A DNA stretch of 49,375 nucleotides from a virus: IMG/VR virus record IMGVR_UViG_3300005262_000002; one strand, given 5' to 3'. Position numbers and translations under genes: made by a program. This document shows, in pieces, positions 13,308 to 17,647 of this stretch (positions within the stretch are counted from its first letter, which is position 1; every line of letters starts with the position of its first letter). The notes beneath the pieces were generated by a model. That model had not been told where the DNA came from. It did no database searches and was given only the letters and a program-made list of their open reading frames with translations.

Positions 13308-13955
13308 ATGCTCCAGCAAATTTTTACATGGACGGAAGCAAACATTGGGCTCCTACGGGAGATGGTTGCCTCCGGAATGTCAGCAAGCCAGGCAGCCGCC
13401 AAGCTCAGATGCTCGCGCAATGCGGTTATCGGCAAGGCTCACAGGTTGGGCATCAGCTTCGGTCATAGCCGTGGCGCACCGACGAAGCTCAAGCCAGAGA
13501 AGAAGCAGACACAAGCCCCAAAGACACCGTGGACGCCCGAGCGGATCGAGAAAGCCGCTCAGATGTGGCGGGACGGCAAGGCTGCAGAGGCCATTGCAAA
13601 CGCTGTAGGCTGCTCTTTAGCCGCTCTACACTTCACCGCCGGCAAATATCGCGAACAGTTCCCTATGCGCAATCTGCGCCGTGGTCGAGCTACCAATACT
13701 GCCGAAAGCAGCGGCCACACCTTCACCGCAGACTCCGTTCCGTTCCTTCTGCCTGACTTTCCCGGCGTCGAGTTCCAACATCTGGAGCCCCACCACTGCA
13801 AGTTTCCCGTCTCCAATGACGTAGGCGCCTCGATGAAGTGCTGCGGAGCCGATCGCAACACAACCGGCCCTTACTGCGCCGTGCATGCCGCTGTTGCCAG
13901 GGGACGCGGAACCGAGAGCGAGCGCAAGGCTACGAAAATCGGGAGGGCTTGGTGA
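13308..13955 (+). CDS. gcrA: GcrA-family cell-cycle regulator homologue
   Basis: WTEANIGLLREMVASGMSASQAAAKLRCSRNAVIGKAHRLG plus C-terminal CKFPV...MKCCGADRNTTGPYCAVH. Confidence 0.8.
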   Translation: MLQQIFTWTEANIGLLREMVASGMSASQAAAKLRCSRNAVIGKAHRLGISFGHSRGAPTKLKPEKKQTQAPKTPWTPERIEKAAQMWRDGKAAEAIANAVGCSLAALHFTAGKYREQFPMRNLRRGRATNTAESSGHTFTADSVPFLLPDFPGVEFQHLEPHHCKFPVSNDVGASMKCCGADRNTTGPYCAVHAAVARGRGTESERKATKIGRAW

Positions 13956-14560
13956 TGACCCTCATCTTCGGCTTCGACCCGTCCAAGTCTACCGGCTGGT
14001 GCGTCTATGACCCCGACCAGCAGAAGCGGGACCGCAACTTCGCCCATATCAAATGCGGCGTGTTGCAGATGCCCGACAAGGCTGATCACTACTACACCGG
14101 CGATCAGATCGGTCTGAAGGTAGCGGCTCTCATCCGCGAGTATGGCAAGCCCGACTGGGTGGTCCTCGAGGAGCAATCCCTCGCCAAGATCGGCAACACC
14201 AGCGCCGACGCCATGCTCTATCCGTGGATTGCTACCACGGCCATCGTCTCGACGATCGCTAACTTCGGCATTCCATACGGCACGCTTCCCCCAGGCACAT
14301 GGCGCAAGGCCTTCTACGGCCAGACGTTCAAGCCGCCGCTCGACAACAAGGGCAAGAAGGACTGGAAGAGCGCGGCTGTCACCGAGTGCGAGCGCCTAGG
14401 GATCAAACTCCCACCACAGAAGGCTCTTGGACACAACGCGGCCGAGGCGTGCGCTCTCGCCATCTGCTGGGGCGTTCGAGAAATGAAGGTTCACGCCGGC
14501 CGGTACCAGCAGCCGCTTATGGATCTCCGTATGGCTCGAAATGAGAGGGCGGTGGCATGA
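13955..14560 (+). CDS. RuvC-like Holliday junction resolvase
   Basis: MTLIFGFDPSKSTGW, VVLEEQS, HNAAEACALA. TGATG coupling to the upstream gene. Confidence 0.65.
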   Translation: MTLIFGFDPSKSTGWCVYDPDQQKRDRNFAHIKCGVLQMPDKADHYYTGDQIGLKVAALIREYGKPDWVVLEEQSLAKIGNTSADAMLYPWIATTAIVSTIANFGIPYGTLPPGTWRKAFYGQTFKPPLDNKGKKDWKSAAVTECERLGIKLPPQKALGHNAAEACALAICWGVREMKVHAGRYQQPLMDLRMARNERAVA

Positions 14561-15129
14561 GGCTCTTCAACTGGCCGTTCGGCGACCTTCAACCTCATTC
14601 CTTCGATTTCATCATGGCTGACCCGCCGTGGCGATTCCAGCTTCGCTCAGAGAAGGGCGAGGGGAAATCGGCGCAGGCTCATTACCGGACCATGCCACTC
14701 GACGAGATTAACGCGATGCCTGTTCTCGATCTGGCTGCACCGAATTGCACGCTTTGGCTCTGGTGCACCGCGCCGATGCTGCCAAAGCAGATGACGACTG
14801 TACGCGCGTGGGGCTTCTCCTACTGCACAGAAGGTGTGTGGGTGAAGATGACAAAGCACGGAAAGGTGGCTTTCGGCACCGGCTACGGCCTCCGAGGTGC
14901 CCACGAGCCCTTCATCATCGCCAAGCGTGGCGAGCCGAAGCTTACCAAATCCACCCGCTCAGTCATCCACGGTAAAGTGAGGGATCACTCTCGCAAGCCT
15001 GAAGAGGCCTACGCCGAGGCCGAGCGGCTCATGCCAAAGGCTAACCGGCTCGATCTATTTTCGCGCACCAACCGCAACGGCTGGACAGCGTGGGGCGATG
15101 AGGCTGGTAAGTTTGGAGAAGCCGCATGA
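14557..15129 (+). CDS. MT-A70-family N6-adenine DNA methyltransferase
   Basis: IMADPPWRF (DPPW motif), LWLWCT, RDHSRKPEE. Confidence 0.85.
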   Translation: MRLFNWPFGDLQPHSFDFIMADPPWRFQLRSEKGEGKSAQAHYRTMPLDEINAMPVLDLAAPNCTLWLWCTAPMLPKQMTTVRAWGFSYCTEGVWVKMTKHGKVAFGTGYGLRGAHEPFIIAKRGEPKLTKSTRSVIHGKVRDHSRKPEEAYAEAERLMPKANRLDLFSRTNRNGWTAWGDEAGKFGEAA

Positions 15130-16583
15130 ACCAGCTTGCACGCGACTTCTCCACAGACTCCCGCATGATGGACGGCATCTCGGAAGACGACATCTTCCAA
15201 GCCGAGGAGGGCGTCCTAGCAGGCATCCTCAGCAAGAACGACTATCTCGGCTCTTGCGGGCTTGAGCCTCACGACTTCGCCGAGGGGCTTCACCAGAAGA
15301 TCTTCGCATCGATCCAGCAGCTTTGCGCCGGGCACCATATCGCCGACGCGCACACGCTGAAGCCCTTCATGCCGCGGGCTATCGACAACCTTCCCATCTC
15401 CCCATCCGAATACGTGAACCGCCTGCAGAAGGCCGGCCTCTACACCCTCCAGCAGGAATTCGAAGCCAAGGTCCAGATCATCAAGGGCGCTTCGATGTCC
15501 CGCCAGTTGGAACGAGAGGCTGAGTTCATCGGCAACCTGGCGCGAGAAGGCCATACGCTTCTCACGCTCGGAGACGAGATCGAAGGCCTTGAGCAGCGAT
15601 TGAAGGAACTGCAGTCACGGTTCGCCGAGACCAAATCCATCAAGTCTCCCGGCTCTCAGTACCTCGCAGCATTCAACGCATCCGGCCGGCGCAAGAGCAT
15701 CGTAGGTGTTCCAATCGGCCTCACCGAAATCCAGCGTGTGCTGTCGGAATCGGTCTTTGCCGGCGGCAACCTCTATGGACTGCTTTCCTCATCGGGCGAG
15801 GGCAAGACCAGCCTGACGATCCAGATCATCTATCACGCGCTCGTCGAGGGGCACCCGGTCCTTTTCCTCTCCTACGACCAGTCCGCATATCAGTGCGTCC
15901 GCCAGATGGTCGCCCAGGTGCACGGCATCACGGTCAAGCAGCAGGACGAGCCTATGCGGCTCATGACCGAGCAGCAGCGCGACAAGTGCGTGGCCTTCGC
16001 AACATGGATCGAGAAGCAGCCGCTTGAGATCATCCGTTGCCAGCGGGAAGGGGTCTTGCAGCTCACGGCCTACGCCCGACGCTTTATCAAGAAATATGCC
16101 AACGGACGCACGCCGCTCATCGTCCTAGACCACATCGGCAAGGTGAAGCCTCGCGACCCTAAGCTTTCTCCCGATCGGATCTCCGGAGAGGTCACCGTCG
16201 AGCTTAAGGCACTCGCAGACGAGACGCAGAGCGCCTTCCTAGTCCTGAACCAGCGCAACAGCTTCGGCACCCGCCGAGACAACCCACGGCCAATCTCTGC
16301 TGACCTATACGGAGGCGAGGGCGCCAAGGCCGACTATGACGGCATCATCTACCTATACCGAGCCGAGAAGTACAAAGCCGATCGTGTGGCCACCGCCGCA
16401 ACAGATCAGGACTGGAAGAAGATCAACAAGGTGTTCGGGTCGGAGATCGAGGGCATCGCGGAGATCGGCAGCATCAAATGCAGGTTCGGCGATCCCAATG
16501 TCCGCGAGACGCTGAAATTCGAGGCTCAGTTCACCCGATACGTTTCCAATGCGCCAGCGCGCCCGCAGGAGTTGGATTTTTGA
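15126..16583 (+). CDS. dnaB: DnaB-like replicative helicase
   Basis: N-terminal AEEGVLAGIL...LEPHDFAEGLHQKIF. Walker A SSSGEGKTS. VLDHIGKV. Confidence 0.85.
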   Translation: MNQLARDFSTDSRMMDGISEDDIFQAEEGVLAGILSKNDYLGSCGLEPHDFAEGLHQKIFASIQQLCAGHHIADAHTLKPFMPRAIDNLPISPSEYVNRLQKAGLYTLQQEFEAKVQIIKGASMSRQLEREAEFIGNLAREGHTLLTLGDEIEGLEQRLKELQSRFAETKSIKSPGSQYLAAFNASGRRKSIVGVPIGLTEIQRVLSESVFAGGNLYGLLSSSGEGKTSLTIQIIYHALVEGHPVLFLSYDQSAYQCVRQMVAQVHGITVKQQDEPMRLMTEQQRDKCVAFATWIEKQPLEIIRCQREGVLQLTAYARRFIKKYANGRTPLIVLDHIGKVKPRDPKLSPDRISGEVTVELKALADETQSAFLVLNQRNSFGTRRDNPRPISADLYGGEGAKADYDGIIYLYRAEKYKADRVATAATDQDWKKINKVFGSEIEGIAEIGSIKCRFGDPNVRETLKFEAQFTRYVSNAPARPQELDF

Positions 16584-17627
16584 ATGTGGCTCTACGTCCC
16601 GAACACCTCAACATCCTCTCCATCTGCACCGGCGGAGGAGGCCTCGATCTCGGCGTCGAGCTGGCAATTCCAAGCGCTAGAACAGTCTGCATGGTCGAGA
16701 GGGAAGCCTTCGCGGTCGCGCAACTGGTATCAGCTATGGAAGCGGGCCTCATGGCTCCAGCGCCTATATGGAGCGATGCCAGAACCCTTGACGGCCGCGC
16801 ATGGCGTGGCGCTGTTGACGGCTTCATTGGTGGCATCCCGTGCCAGCCTCACAGCCTCGCCGGCAAGAAGCAAGGCAGCAACGACGCCAGAGACCTCTGG
16901 TCAACAGCCCGTCGCCTCATCATCCAGTCGCGCGCGTGGTTCGTCCTCATCGAGAATGTCGCCGGCATGCTCTCTGCGGGGGATGACGAAATCGCTGGAG
17001 CGGAGCGGGTTTACCGAGACCTTCTCAAGCTTGGCTTCCAGGTGGAGGGAGGACTGTTCACGGCGTCAGAGGGCGGCACGAGCCATCAGCGCGAGCGGGT
17101 CTTCATCCTTGGGGTGGCTGACGCCCTCTGCGAACGAGGATGCGGCCGGGACTGTGGATGGGAAGATGCAACGGATGCTCACTCACCAAGCGAAAGAAGC
17201 CTCCGATCAATGGGCAACGCCGCGGGTGTCGTCGGAGAGGACATCATCGATCGCTCTGGAAAGGCCGGACAGCGTGTCGTCACTCTCGATCGCTCAACAG
17301 GCGGAAATCGTCATGGGGGAGGTGCCGAGGGAAATCTACCTCGTGAGCGAAAAGACACAGCGACGGCTTGGATTCGACCCATCTTCCCTCCCGGCCCAGC
17401 CGATCGAGACGGATGGAGAAGTATCCTCGAAAGAGCCCCGGAGCTTGAACCCGCTTTTCGTCGAGTGGCTGATGGGCTGGCCTCGAGGCTGGACATTGCT
17501 CGCGTGGACCGACTTCGCATGCTCGGCAATGGAGTTGTCCCACTTCAAGCAGCGTATGCGATCCGCACTCTTATCACTCGGCTTGCCGCAAGAGGCCCCG
17601 CCGGCGCAGCTCGCCTTGTTCGGATGA
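16584..17627 (+). CDS. Full-length +1-frame ORF overlapping the C5-methylase gene (frame B, 347 aa)
   Basis: ATG directly after the dnaB-like stop (TGAATG). No stop for 347 codons. WLTPSANED, WATPRVSSERT and LNPLFVEWLMGWPRGWT. Codon-position GC favours this frame distal to about 17110. Confidence 0.45.
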   Translation: MWLYVPNTSTSSPSAPAEEASISASSWQFQALEQSAWSRGKPSRSRNWYQLWKRASWLQRLYGAMPEPLTAAHGVALLTASLVASRASLTASPARSKAATTPETSGQQPVASSSSRARGSSSSRMSPACSLRGMTKSLERSGFTETFSSLASRWREDCSRRQRAARAISASGSSSLGWLTPSANEDAAGTVDGKMQRMLTHQAKEASDQWATPRVSSERTSSIALERPDSVSSLSIAQQAEIVMGEVPREIYLVSEKTQRRLGFDPSSLPAQPIETDGEVSSKEPRSLNPLFVEWLMGWPRGWTLLAWTDFACSAMELSHFKQRMRSALLSLGLPQEAPPAQLALFG

Positions 17628-17647
17628 TGGAAGGAATTGACGCATGA
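16586..17647 (+). CDS. dcm: DNA (cytosine-5) methyltransferase (frame A)
   Basis: Motif I LSICTGGGGLDLG, IV GGIPCQPHS, VI LIENV, VIII QRERVFILG, C-terminal FPPGP...RLRMLGNGVVPLQAAYA. Only a GTG start (16586) lies near motif I. Confidence 0.85.
   Translation: MALRPEHLNILSICTGGGGLDLGVELAIPSARTVCMVEREAFAVAQLVSAMEAGLMAPAPIWSDARTLDGRAWRGAVDGFIGGIPCQPHSLAGKKQGSNDARDLWSTARRLIIQSRAWFVLIENVAGMLSAGDDEIAGAERVYRDLLKLGFQVEGGLFTASEGGTSHQRERVFILGVADALCERGCGRDCGWEDATDAHSPSERSLRSMGNAAGVVGEDIIDRSGKAGQRVVTLDRSTGGNRHGGGAEGNLPRERKDTATAWIRPIFPPGPADRDGWRSILERAPELEPAFRRVADGLASRLDIARVDRLRMLGNGVVPLQAAYAIRTLITRLAARGPAGAARLVRMMEGIDA

What the first reader, a model, noticed from the sequence alone, without database searches (positions are those of the whole stretch)
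17096..17141. Codon-position GC switches from frame A to frame B near a CTT-GGG-G site: possible +1 frame change joining the MTase catalytic domain to the WxTP/EWLMG-GWT part
These are hand counts of GC at frame-A codon positions 1/2/3, and they are approximate.
- 16586-16900: about 68/53/67 %. The minimum is at position 2, as expected if frame A is the selected frame.
- 17132-17380: about 70/60/47 %.
- 17441-17644: about 78/53/50 %.

In the distal half the GC-poor position is A3, which is B2, and the GC-rich position is A1, which is B3. That is the signature expected if frame B is the selected frame there.

The frame-A translation of the middle segment (CERGCGRDCGWEDATDAHSPSERS...GGNRHGGGAEGN) looks like out-of-frame sequence.

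The switch coincides with CTT GGG G TGG (17108-17117). Skipping G17114 joins ...QRERVFILG to WLTPSANEDAAGTVDGK....

Possible readings:
- a sequencing or mutational indel (pseudogene)
- a programmed +1 shift on CUU-GGG-G
- true dual coding, in which each frame has been kept open through the territory of the other

The GN motif (LGNGVVP) is back in frame A, so a canonical enzyme would need a second switch near 17495-17514.
Basis: partly seen in the sequence, partly recalled or inferred. Interest (0 to 1): 0.7.

Follow-up and report, generated by a model that had tools for sequence, protein, structure and literature searches.

The report
One methyltransferase gene, two reading frames
This phage DNA cytosine methyltransferase gene is open end to end in two overlapping reading frames, one holding the catalytic domain and the other the DNA-recognition domain, and the same layout recurs in over a hundred related genes, so it is a conserved dual-coding gene, not a sequencing error or a frameshift site.

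Summary

It is not an indel and not a CUU-GGG-G frameshift site.
- Two ORFs cover the same ~1,050 nt: frame A (16580-17647, 355 aa) and frame B (+1; 16584-17627, 347 aa).
- A carries C5-methyltransferase motifs I-VIII and X, which form the large domain.
- B carries the WxTP target-recognition modules and motif IX, which form the small domain.

The layout is conserved.
- 49 of 51 viral loci (found with frame A's catalytic domain) and about 50 of 55 genome loci (found with full-length frame-A proteins) keep both frames open, down to 41% identity and 44% GC.
- Ordinary C5-methyltransferases do not.
- A frame-B profile matches 2,519 protein clusters at E<=1e-30.

Substitution patterns show the selected frame alternating A-B-A-B-A. 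Two fourfold-degenerate A codons are frozen to keep a B-frame Asp and Arg. Start codons for the two frames lie 4 nt apart behind one Shine-Dalgarno-like site. No slippery site or RNA structure is conserved.

Best reading (confidence about 0.75): two polypeptides assemble into one enzyme, as shown experimentally for M.EcoHK31I alpha/beta. Here the overlap is complete and the recognition domain sits in the beta-like chain.

This is a new variant of a known kind, apparently undescribed as a large family.

The parts
16567..16571 (+). Shine-Dalgarno-like AGGAG, 8 nt before the frame-A start and 12 nt before the frame-B start
   Evidence: Sequence. A purine-rich GGAG/GAGG block sits at the same distance in most relatives.
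16580..16588 (+). Start cluster TTGAATGTG. TTG 16580 is the frame-A start. TGA 16581-16583 is the helicase stop and lies in frame B. ATG 16584 is the frame-B start. GTG 16586 is an alternative frame-A start (AUGUG).
   Evidence: The pattern NTGAATGTGG is present in 57 of the ~70 loci that carry ATGTGG; 30 further loci lack ATGTGG. Some of those 30 carry a variant, NTGAC(A/G)TGGCT, with the order reversed. AUGUG sites can start both frames in E. coli (PMC9841429).
16580..17647 (+). Frame A ORF, the alpha-like chain of 355 aa (P0121). It holds motifs I-VIII, a disordered spacer, the FPPGP..W helices and motif X.
16584..17627 (+). Frame B ORF (+1 relative to A), the beta-like chain of 347 aa (P0001). 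It holds an overprinted N-terminal part, WxTP recognition modules, motif IX and a tail.
16616..17113 (+). Frame-A-selected catalytic region. Motif I is LSICTGGGGLDLG (16616-16654). CMVEREAF is at 16688-16711. Motif IV is GGIPCQPHS (16829-16855). Motif VI is FVLIENV (16940-16960). Motif VIII is QRERVFILG (17087-17113).
   Evidence: Pfam PF00145 profile 2-163. Fold matches M.HaeIII, M.HhaI and DNMT1. The most variable codon position is A3.
16644..16766 (+). Frame B aa 21-61, overprinted on motifs I-II of A. AlphaFold predicts a helix, a hairpin and two helices with pLDDT 90-95.
   Evidence: A-frame third-position diversity is lowest here: codons 20-40 give 0.09/0.05/0.08. Several fourfold sites are invariant. 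A role for this segment is inferred only.
17022..17096 (+). Frame B helix aa 147-171, just before the recognition modules. It contains Asp157 (17052-17054) and Arg161 (17064-17066), both invariant.
   Evidence: D157 and R161 are invariant in 120 B proteins. They are fixed through A-frame fourfold third positions: Gly is GGA in 49/52 sequences and Ala is GCG in 52/52.
17108..17117 (+). This is where the selected frame passes from A to B. It is not a conserved slippery site.
   Evidence: A reads FILG-VAD and B reads SSSxW(P/L)TP. The nucleotide string differs among relatives.
17114..17383 (+). Frame A spacer (aa 179-268). It is not conserved, is predicted disordered, and is kept free of stop codons.
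   Evidence: AlphaFold pLDDT is below 50 for aa 192-262. A1 (=B3) is the most variable position here. A synonymous shuffle of the frame-B distal part (TRD to the B stop) leaves frame A open in only ~3% of trials at the median.
17115..17383 (+). Frame-B-selected target-recognition region, built of WxTP-led modules (WLTP 17115-17126, WATP 17211-17222).
   Evidence: Pi B1/B2/B3 is about 0.03/0.01/0.35 in the shared module. The number of modules differs between close relatives.
17384..17452 (+). Frame-A-selected segment FPPGPADRDGWRSILERAPELEP, lying between the B-coded modules and the B-coded motif IX.
   Evidence: The most variable position is A3 (0.54-0.61). Amino-acid identity is 0.54 in A against 0.36 in B. 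F269, P270, P271, P273, W279, P287 and P291 are invariant or nearly so in 118 A proteins. AlphaFold predicts helices with pLDDT about 80.
17439..17495 (+). Frame-B-selected motif IX, RSLNPLFVEWLMGWPRGWT.
   Evidence: Only B3 varies. Identity is 0.95 in B against 0.86 in A. It aligns to phrog_1008 profile positions 261-282.
17501..17542 (+). Frame-A-selected motif X, RVDRLRMLGNGVVP.
   Evidence: The most variable position is A3. Identity is 0.98 in A against 0.77 in B. It aligns to phrog_1008 profile positions 287-323 and weakly to M.HaeIII residues 299-318.
17543..17647 (+). Doubly conserved 3' tail. It holds the C-terminal helices of A and the tail of B. The B stop is TGA 17625-17627 and the A stop is TGA 17645-17647.
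   Evidence: Identity is 0.80 in both frames. In the more distant clade L047-L052, B stops right after GWTDC.

Best explanation
The gene at 16580-17647 encodes a DNA cytosine-5 methyltransferase whose two structural domains are written in two reading frames. Both frames are translated over the whole gene.

Start. Ribosomes load at one Shine-Dalgarno-like site. They may also re-initiate after finishing the helicase gene, whose TGA lies inside the start cluster. They begin either at TTG 16580 (or GTG 16586) in frame A, or at ATG 16584 in frame B.

Frame A chain (alpha-like):
- the catalytic large domain, motifs I-VIII;
- a stop-free spacer of about 80-90 residues, predicted disordered and with no conserved sequence;
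- the FPPGP..W helices and motif X, which belong to the large domain.

Frame B chain (beta-like):
- about 176 residues read from the +1 frame of the catalytic region, of which at least aa 147-171 and probably aa 21-60 are themselves under selection;
- WxTP target-recognition modules;
- motif IX, which completes the small domain.

Assembly. The two chains associate non-covalently into an active enzyme, as the alpha and beta chains of M.EcoHK31I do.

Shown here:
- the two co-extensive ORFs and which motifs lie in which frame;
- conservation of the layout and of the paired start codons;
- the alternation of the selected frame;
- selection on B residues inside the catalytic overlap.

Inferred:
- that both proteins accumulate;
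- that they bind each other;
- that both are needed for methylation.
For: 1. Anatomy.
- Frame A alone matches only PF00145 profile positions 2-163.
- An A-B-A chimera matches positions 2-318 of 324.
- phrog_1008 aligns B to its motif IX region and A to its motif X region, contiguously.
- In C5-methyltransferases, motifs I-VIII and X form the large domain, and the TRD plus motif IX form the small domain (PMC3404938).

2. Conservation.
- In 49 of 51 viral loci found with the frame-A catalytic domain alone, at 91-41% identity, both frames are open over 800-1,400 nt. PC, ENV and GN motifs lie in A; WxTP and motif IX lie in B; the third frame is closed.
- This includes loci with 44-46% GC.
- About 50 of 55 genome loci show the same layout, from Alphaproteobacteria to Dehalococcoidia, Phycisphaerae and Thermoanaerobaculia MAGs.
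- More than 500 full-length frame-B homologues were found.
- A frame-B profile matches 9,892 clusters at E<=1e-10.

3. Controls.
- Ordinary C5-methyltransferases L054-L076 have a mean of 9.8 +1-frame stops in 160 codons.
- Synonymous shuffles keep the second frame open in only about 4% and 3% of trials per region, at the median.

4. Selection.
- A3 is the most variable position in the catalytic region.
- B3 is the most variable in the TRD (0.35 against 0.01-0.03).
- A3 is again the most variable over FPPGP..W, then B3 over motif IX, then A3 over motif X.
- Frozen fourfold codons GGA (49/52) and GCG (52/52) in A keep Asp157 and Arg161 in B.

5. Paired start codons 4-5 nt apart are conserved. 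Dual initiation at AUGUG has been shown in E. coli.

6. AlphaFold.
- A has a folded large domain, a disordered spacer and folded FPPGP and motif X helices.
- Its fold matches M.HaeIII and M.HhaI.

7. Precedent. [quoted passage not shown]
Against: - There is no expression, proteomic or activity data for this gene or any close relative.
- The AlphaFold model of B has a low pTM (0.28) and no structural match.
- The alpha-beta interaction was not modelled.
- The distance from the SD-like site to the B start is 12 nt, which is long.
- Single-chain relatives with motifs IX and X in one frame exist (phrog_1008; L133 and L134). A minor frameshifted single-chain product therefore cannot be excluded.
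- Some conservation in the second frame is a by-product of conservation in the first. Only a few sites (GGA and GCG, and the invariant fourfold sites) separate the two cleanly.
- Sequence homology to M.EcoHK31I could not be tested.
Confidence: 0.75

Rival explanations
1. Two programmed ribosomal frameshifts produce one canonical single-chain methyltransferase, I-VIII / TRD-IX / X. The first is +1 near 17114 and the second is -1 near 17496. The full-length A and B products would be by-products.
For: - The A-B-A chimera is a complete PF00145 match, profile 2-318/324.
- Single-chain relatives have motifs IX and X contiguous (L134).
- CTT GGG G resembles a +1 shift site in this one sequence.
Against: - No slippery sequence is conserved at either junction.
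- No RNA structure stands out downstream of either junction: z = +0.90 and -0.05.
- Both frames stay open far beyond what a frameshift needs.
- The B start codon is conserved at the 5' end.
- Frame A is the selected frame over FPPGP..W, inside the stretch a shifted ribosome would read in B.
- B residues upstream of the junction are under selection.
- Two shifts in series would give a low yield.
Confidence: 0.08
2. Both frames are translated, but the frame-B protein or its N-terminal part has a function of its own, such as regulation, anti-defence or DNA binding. It would not be an obligate subunit of the methyltransferase.
For: - The B N-terminal segment aa 21-60 is predicted folded with pLDDT 90-95, and aa 147-171 is under selection.
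- No known domain matches B.
- PHROG 27243, which matches B aa 167-336, has unknown function.
Against: - B carries motif IX and the WxTP modules, which A lacks and which a C5-methyltransferase needs.
- A without B has no small domain.
- B is only ever found overlapping an A-type gene in the loci examined.
Confidence: 0.12
3. This is a pseudogene or an assembly artefact. Two compensating one-base indels in a formerly single-frame gene moved the TRD and motif IX out of frame.
For: - Single-chain relatives exist.
- A few family members do carry one extra indel: L034, L104, L117 and L120.
Against: - The same two-frame layout occurs in more than 100 loci from independent assemblies, isolates and phages, at 41-91% identity and with different TRDs.
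- Both frames show purifying selection.
Confidence: 0.01
4. This is a chance or compositional effect. A GC-rich gene simply lacks stop codons in its +1 frame, and frame B is not translated.
For: - The window is 59% GC.
- Alternative-frame ORFs of 100-200 codons occur in its other genes.
Against: - The other genes of the window have 3.0 +1-frame stops per 100 codons, and no open run longer than 210 codons.
- Relatives with 44-46% GC keep both frames open.
- The WxTP modules and motif IX show classical third-position variation in frame B.
- The third frame is closed.
Confidence: 0.02

Closest known systems
M.EcoHK31I (alpha/beta C5-methyltransferase of E. coli HK31, YGGCCR)
   Same: - The enzyme is made of two polypeptides, and both are needed for activity.
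[quoted passage not shown] - The N-terminal part of beta contributes to association with alpha.
(PMC2836561; PMC3404938.)
   Different: - Here the two ORFs are co-extensive (355 and 347 codons) and start 4 nt apart. From my own recollection, beta in M.EcoHK31I is a nested ORF of about 176 codons.
- Here the recognition modules lie in the beta-like frame. In M.EcoHK31I the TRD was predicted to lie in alpha.
- No restriction enzyme gene is adjacent here; this is a phage or prophage orphan methyltransferase.
- Sequence homology to M.EcoHK31I was not tested because its sequence was not at hand.
M.AquI (alpha/beta C5-methyltransferase of Synechococcus PCC 7002)
   Same: It is a natural two-subunit C5-methyltransferase split in the variable region.
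   Different: M.AquI is cut once: alpha holds I-VIII plus part of the TRD, and beta holds the rest of the TRD plus IX and X. There the genes are consecutive. Here the split follows the domain boundary twice, so motif X stays with the large-domain chain, and the genes overlap completely.
Monomeric C5-methyltransferases (M.HaeIII, M.HhaI; phage family phrog_1008)
   Same: - They share the catalytic fold and motif set.
- The motif IX to motif X region aligns contiguously to phrog_1008.
   Different: In those enzymes all motifs lie in one frame, and the +1 frame is full of stops (L054-L076).
Ambiguous initiation at AUGUG/GUGUG (Kohl et al. 2022, PMC9841429)
   Same: AUG and GUG overlap by one base (16584-16588) behind one SD-like site. 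Such sites can start translation in both frames in E. coli.
   Different: Those E. coli cases give short or incidental second products. Here both frames continue for about 350 codons. A further A-frame start (NTG at -6) is also conserved.
Phage lambda Rz/Rz1 spanin genes (from my own knowledge, not checked here)
   Same: One gene is embedded in the +1 frame of another, and the two products bind each other to form one functional unit.
   Different: Rz1 is short (about 60 codons) and unrelated in fold to Rz. Here the two frames encode the two domains of what is elsewhere a single-chain enzyme.

Membership tests
C5 DNA cytosine methyltransferase (Pfam PF00145) | Motifs I (FxGxG), IV (PCQ), VI (ENV) and VIII (QxRxR) in order, with the Rossmann-like large-domain fold | tested here: met
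   Frame A matches PF00145 at 85 bits over profile 2-163. The motifs are located. The AlphaFold model matches M.HaeIII, M.HhaI and DNMT1.
C5 DNA cytosine methyltransferase (Pfam PF00145) | Target-recognition region, motif IX and motif X in the same polypeptide as motifs I-VIII | tested here: not met
   Motif IX and the WxTP modules are in frame B only. Motif X is in frame A. Only an artificial A-B-A chimera covers profile positions 2-318/324.
Heterodimeric C5-methyltransferase of the M.EcoHK31I type | The alpha chain carries motifs I-VIII and X; the beta chain carries motif IX | tested here: met
Heterodimeric C5-methyltransferase of the M.EcoHK31I type | The beta ORF lies within the alpha gene in a different reading frame | tested here: met
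   B (16584-17627, +1 frame) lies inside A (16580-17647).
Heterodimeric C5-methyltransferase of the M.EcoHK31I type | Both polypeptides are made, associate, and are required for methylation | not testable with these tools
   Only indirect evidence exists: both frames are under selection and both have conserved start codons.
Heterodimeric C5-methyltransferase of the M.EcoHK31I type | Sequence homology to M.EcoHK31I alpha and beta beyond the general C5 motifs | not tested
The original paper is not held.
Heterodimeric C5-methyltransferase of the M.EcoHK31I type | Part of a restriction-modification system with a cognate endonuclease gene next to it | tested here: not met
   The neighbours are a DnaB-like helicase, a RuvC-like resolvase, a second methyltransferase and small proteins of unknown function. 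No nuclease hit was found among the ten ORFs scanned. Only the immediate neighbourhood was checked.
Programmed ribosomal frameshift site | A slippery sequence conserved at the point where the frames change | tested here: not met
   CTT GGG G occurs only in the window. Relatives have CTC GGC G, CTC GGA G, CTC GCA G and others.
Programmed ribosomal frameshift site | The zero frame closes soon after the site, and the new frame is closed before it | tested here: not met
   Both frames are open from the start cluster to the end of the gene, in the window and in more than 100 relatives.
Programmed ribosomal frameshift site | A stimulatory RNA structure downstream | tested here: not met
   Folding of 17115-17214 and 17498-17597 gives z-scores of +0.90 and -0.05 against shuffles. 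Pseudoknots were not assessed.
Same-strand overlapping (dual-coding) gene pair | The second frame is open more often than synonymous shuffling allows, across independent lineages | tested here: met
   Median P is 0.04 and 0.03 per region per locus over 50 loci, with zero stops observed.
Same-strand overlapping (dual-coding) gene pair | Purifying selection on each frame, shown by substitution phase or by constrained synonymous sites | tested here: met
   The phase alternates A-B-A-B-A. Fourfold codons GGA (49/52) and GCG (52/52) are frozen to keep B Asp157 and Arg161.

The most novel reading that the evidence does not exclude
This is a fully entangled gene. One mRNA and one ribosome-binding site feed two start codons 4 nt apart. 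The two nascent chains, each carrying one domain of the enzyme, assemble co-translationally on the same message. The overprinted N-terminal part of the B chain (aa 21-60 and helix 147-171) is not a passive leader. It is a folded, selected module that clamps the catalytic chain, so the same nucleotides encode two structured, interacting parts of one enzyme. On this reading the arrangement is ancient and is the normal state of a family of thousands of phage and prophage methyltransferases, most of which are annotated in only one frame.
Probability: 0.35. Interest if true: 0.9.

Novelty: new variant of a known kind. Interest (0 to 1): 0.8.

Why it matters
Long same-strand overlapping genes are thought to be very rare outside small viruses, and annotation pipelines discard the second frame by design.

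- **Size and conservation.** This is an overlap of about 1 kb and 100% of the gene. It is conserved across several bacterial phyla and their phages.
- **Unusual division of labour.** The two frames encode the two domains of one enzyme, and selection hands over from frame to frame five times along the gene.
- **Status of M.EcoHK31I.** The finding turns M.EcoHK31I, treated since 1995 as a curiosity, into the first characterised example of what looks like a large class.
- **Annotation.** It explains thousands of 'hypothetical proteins' that are the second frame of annotated methyltransferases. Methyltransferase annotations that keep only frame A describe an enzyme with no recognition domain.
- **A natural test system.** It can be used to study competing start codons, co-translational assembly of subunits from one mRNA, and how much sequence freedom a protein keeps when its partner is written on the same bases.
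- **Specificity prediction.** The recognition region is built of exchangeable WxTP modules read in the second frame, which bears on predicting methylation specificity in phages.

Tried and rejected
- **Indel or pseudogene.** Rejected after the first two relatives, and then more than 100 loci, showed the same two open frames.
- **Chance open frame in GC-rich DNA.** Rejected by the window controls, the ordinary methyltransferases, the 44% GC relatives and the synonymous shuffles.
- **Programmed +1 shift on CTT-GGG-G.** The site is not conserved and no structure lies downstream.
- **Canonical single-frame close relative.** I looked for one with the A-B-A chimera. Of the top 120 hits, 118 were frame-A-type proteins. 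Two (P0170, P0217) carry both motif sets but no motif X, and are probably indel variants. Canonical relatives appear only at 27-34% identity (L133, L134) and as the phrog_1008 profile.
- **Short frame-B proteins in the profile search.** P0376 and similar hits looked like nested, internally started beta genes. The contig shows both frames full length, so the short call is a gene-caller choice.
- **Structural and sequence searches with frame B.** Foldseek against PDB and phmmer against PDB gave nothing meaningful.
- **Literature.** Six full-text searches found no description of this family. The frameshifting review does not mention DNA methyltransferases. The original M.EcoHK31I paper is not held.
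- **Isolated phages.** tblastn of frame B against isolated phages found only the two Synechococcus phages.
Full report
**Observation.** I recomputed GC by codon position. In frame A, 16586-17113 gives 68/50/70%, the pattern of a gene read in A. In 17114-17500 it gives 71/60/50%, which is 60/50/71% in frame B. CTTGGGGTGG lies at 17108-17117, and skipping G17114 joins QRERVFILG to WLTPSANEDAAGTVDGK.

**What is there.** Two ORFs cover the same DNA.
- Frame A starts at TTG 16580, which is the start of P0121, the database protein predicted from this contig, and ends at TGA 17645-17647 (355 aa). The mechanical ORF from ATG 16478 begins inside the helicase gene and is not the real start.
- Frame B is the +1 frame. 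It runs from ATG 16584 to TGA 17625-17627 (347 aa).
- Frame A holds C5-methyltransferase motifs I, IV (PCQ), VI (ENV), VIII and X. Between VIII and X it has about 90 residues that look like out-of-frame sequence.
- Frame B holds WLTP and WATP modules and RSLNPLFVEWLMGWPRGWT, which is motif IX.
- Pfam PF00145 matches frame A only over profile positions 2-163. An artificial A-B-A chimera matches positions 2-318 of 324.
- PHROG 1008, a methyltransferase family profile of 329 positions, aligns B aa 286-307 to positions 261-282 and A aa 299-335 to positions 287-323. So motif IX in B and motif X in A are contiguous in that profile.
- In C5-methyltransferases, motifs I-VIII and X build the large domain, and the variable region with motif IX builds the small domain (PMC3404938). 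Frame A therefore encodes the large domain and frame B the small domain.

**This is not peculiar to the window.**
- Two nearly identical Synechococcus phages are 81% identical to the window at both ends of the gene but have a different middle. Both have the same two open frames, and their annotators each chose a different one.
- I searched viral contigs with the frame-A catalytic domain only, so that frame B played no part in the selection. This gave 51 relatives at 91-41% identity (L003-L053). In 49 of them both frames are open stop to stop over 800-1,400 nt. PC, ENV and GN motifs are always in A, WxTP and motif IX are always in B, and the third frame is closed.
- Four of these relatives have only 44-46% GC.
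- The 23 more distant, ordinary C5-methyltransferases in the same search have short +1 frames, with a mean of 9.8 stops in 160 codons.
- A scan of one genome per species found the layout in about 50 of 55 loci (L077-L131). Most are Rhizobiales and other Alphaproteobacteria. It also occurs in Dehalococcoidia, Phycisphaerae, Thermoanaerobaculia and Thermoguttaceae MAGs.
- The exceptions carry one extra indel (L034, L104, L117, L120) or a stop in B (L026).
- Frame B has more than 500 full-length database homologues. None has a Pfam domain, and those that carry a name are called hypothetical proteins.
- A profile of frame-B proteins matches 24,243 clusters at E<=1e-3, 9,892 at E<=1e-10 and 2,519 at E<=1e-30, out of 1.84 billion representatives.

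**More than chance.**
- The window's 17 other long genes carry 3.0 +1-frame stops per 100 codons. Their longest open +1 run is 210 codons, against 346 here.
- I shuffled synonymous codons while keeping protein sequence and codon usage. Frame B then stays open over the catalytic region in a median of 4% of trials. Frame A stays open over the distal part in a median of 3%. This was done per locus over 50 loci, and none of them has a stop in reality.

**Which frame is selected where.** I recorded which codon position varies among relatives.
- Catalytic region: A3 varies most, with pi 0.13/0.06/0.22 in six close relatives.
- Shared recognition module: B3 varies most, 0.35 against 0.01-0.03.
- The 3' part was anchored on motif IX in 22 sequences:
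  - FPPGPxDxxxW (17384-17416): A3 varies most (0.54-0.61). Amino-acid identity is 0.54 in A and 0.36 in B.
  - Motif IX (17439-17495): only B3 varies. Identity is 0.95 in B and 0.86 in A.
  - Motif X (17501-17542): A3 varies most. Identity is 0.98 in A and 0.77 in B.
  - The tail: both frames are at 0.80.
- The selected frame therefore runs A-B-A-B-A. A single chain made by two shifts cannot explain an A-selected segment between two B-selected ones.
- Inside the catalytic overlap, the invariant Gly and Ala of A (P0121 G158 and A162) use GGA in 49 of 52 distinct sequences and GCG in 52 of 52. Their free third positions are thus frozen. These positions are the second bases of Asp157 and Arg161 in B, which are invariant in 120 B proteins. 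B is therefore under selection upstream of its recognition modules as well.

**Start region.**
- Most relatives share NTGAATGTGGCT. This contains an A-frame start NTG, a B-frame TGA that is often the stop of a long upstream gene (here the helicase), the B-frame ATG, and an overlapping A-frame GTG.
- A variant, NTGAC(A/G)TGGCT, puts the B start first.
- In the window AGGAG lies at 16567-16571, 8 nt before TTG and 12 nt before ATG.
- Initiation in both frames at AUGUG has been shown in E. coli (PMC9841429).

**Structure predictions.**
- With 118 frame-A proteins as the alignment, AlphaFold folds aa 10-187 and 306-350 confidently. It gives helices at 276-302 (FPPGP..W) with pLDDT about 80 and leaves 192-262 disordered. 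The fold matches M.HaeIII, M.HhaI and DNMT1.
- With 120 frame-B proteins, aa 21-60 reach pLDDT 90-95. A helix is predicted at 147-171. The modules and motif IX reach 65-84. The overall pTM is 0.28 and there is no PDB match.

**Rival readings.**
- At the A-to-B junction the nucleotides differ among relatives (CTC GGC G, CTC GGA G, CTC GCA G).
- No RNA structure stands out after either junction.
- Both frames stay open far beyond what a frameshift needs.
- The indel, chance and frameshift readings are therefore unlikely. A minor frameshifted product cannot be excluded.

**Known precedent.**
- M.EcoHK31I is made of alpha and beta chains that must associate. [quoted passage not shown] - M.AquI is another two-subunit C5 enzyme.
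- The gene here has the same logic, with three differences. The ORFs are co-extensive with paired starts. The recognition modules are in the beta-like frame. The gene sits among phage replication genes with no endonuclease beside it.
- I could not obtain the M.EcoHK31I sequence, so common descent is untested.
- Six literature searches found no description of this family.

**Conclusion.**
- The flagged site is the first of several places where selection passes from one frame to the other in a conserved, fully overlapping gene pair.
- The most likely mechanism is two polypeptides, started side by side, that assemble into one methyltransferase (confidence about 0.75).
- Shown: the anatomy, its conservation, the start-codon pair, and selection on both frames.
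- Inferred: synthesis of both chains, their association, and the need for both.
- I rate it a new variant of a known kind and of high interest. The overlap is unusually long, each frame encodes one domain of the same enzyme, and thousands of database entries appear to be annotated in only one of the two frames.

Noticed in passing
L133 631-1770 and L134 1495-2673 (Deinococcaceae and Truepera MAGs): These distant relatives (27-34% identity) have a different layout. Frame A holds the catalytic motifs, about 85 junk-like residues, two LLPTP modules, motif IX and motif X, all in one frame. A nested +1 ORF (179 aa in L134) holds two more LLPTP modules and a 'WPRSGMTRAGRLYEL' segment. This may be a second, partial form of the same two-frame design.
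   Followed up: partly
window 17115-17383; L003, L004, L007, L009, L010: The frame-B recognition region is built of WxTP-led modules of about 30-40 residues. Their number differs between close relatives, from one to seven across the loci examined, while the last module is nearly identical. This suggests module gain, loss or exchange. Every new module must also be stop-free in frame A.
   Followed up: partly
L001 2994-4133 and L002 3001-4116: Two nearly identical Synechococcus phage genomes are annotated in different frames here. One is called 'cytosine-specific DNA methyltransferase' (frame A) and the other 'hypothetical protein' (frame B). In metagenome gene calls only one frame is kept, sometimes truncated. 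P0376 is an example: on contig L135 both frames are open over more than 400 codons (427 and 430 aa).
   Followed up: yes
L034, L104, L117, L120, L026: A minority of family members carry one extra indel that re-pairs the segments. For example, the B modules become fused to A's FPPGP and motif X, with motif IX moved to the third frame. L026 instead has a stop in the B N-terminal part. These may be decaying copies or assembly errors, but they were not distinguished from functional variants.
   Followed up: partly
window 14557-15129 (+): A second DNA methyltransferase gene (phrog_359, E 5e-65) lies two genes upstream, after a RuvC-like resolvase (13838-14560) and before the DnaB-like helicase (15126-16583). 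In relative L135 a Dam-type gene (PF05869) directly follows the two-frame gene.
   Followed up: no
window 16478-16583: The mechanical frame-A ORF starts at ATG 16478, inside the helicase gene. The real frame-A start is TTG 16580 (or GTG 16586). The helicase stop TGA 16581-16583 overlaps TTG and abuts ATG 16584, so translation of both frames could be coupled to the helicase gene.
   Followed up: partly
window 17435-17552: Only the doubly coded motif IX / motif X stretch gives blastn matches in plasmids: Ensifer canadensis at 79 nt and 83.5%, and Sphingomonas paeninsulae at 48 nt and 87.5%. This fits the unusually high nucleotide conservation of this part.
   Followed up: no
window 17205-17430 (frame B aa ~208-282): The last recognition module shows a weak, probably chance resemblance to the KH region of ribosomal protein S3 (phmmer E 0.14 against PDB).
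   Followed up: no
whole window: The frame-B protein is recorded on a contig of exactly 49,375 nt, the length of the window. The window is therefore probably a complete assembled contig of a phage or prophage, with replication genes at 13-19 kb.
   Followed up: no
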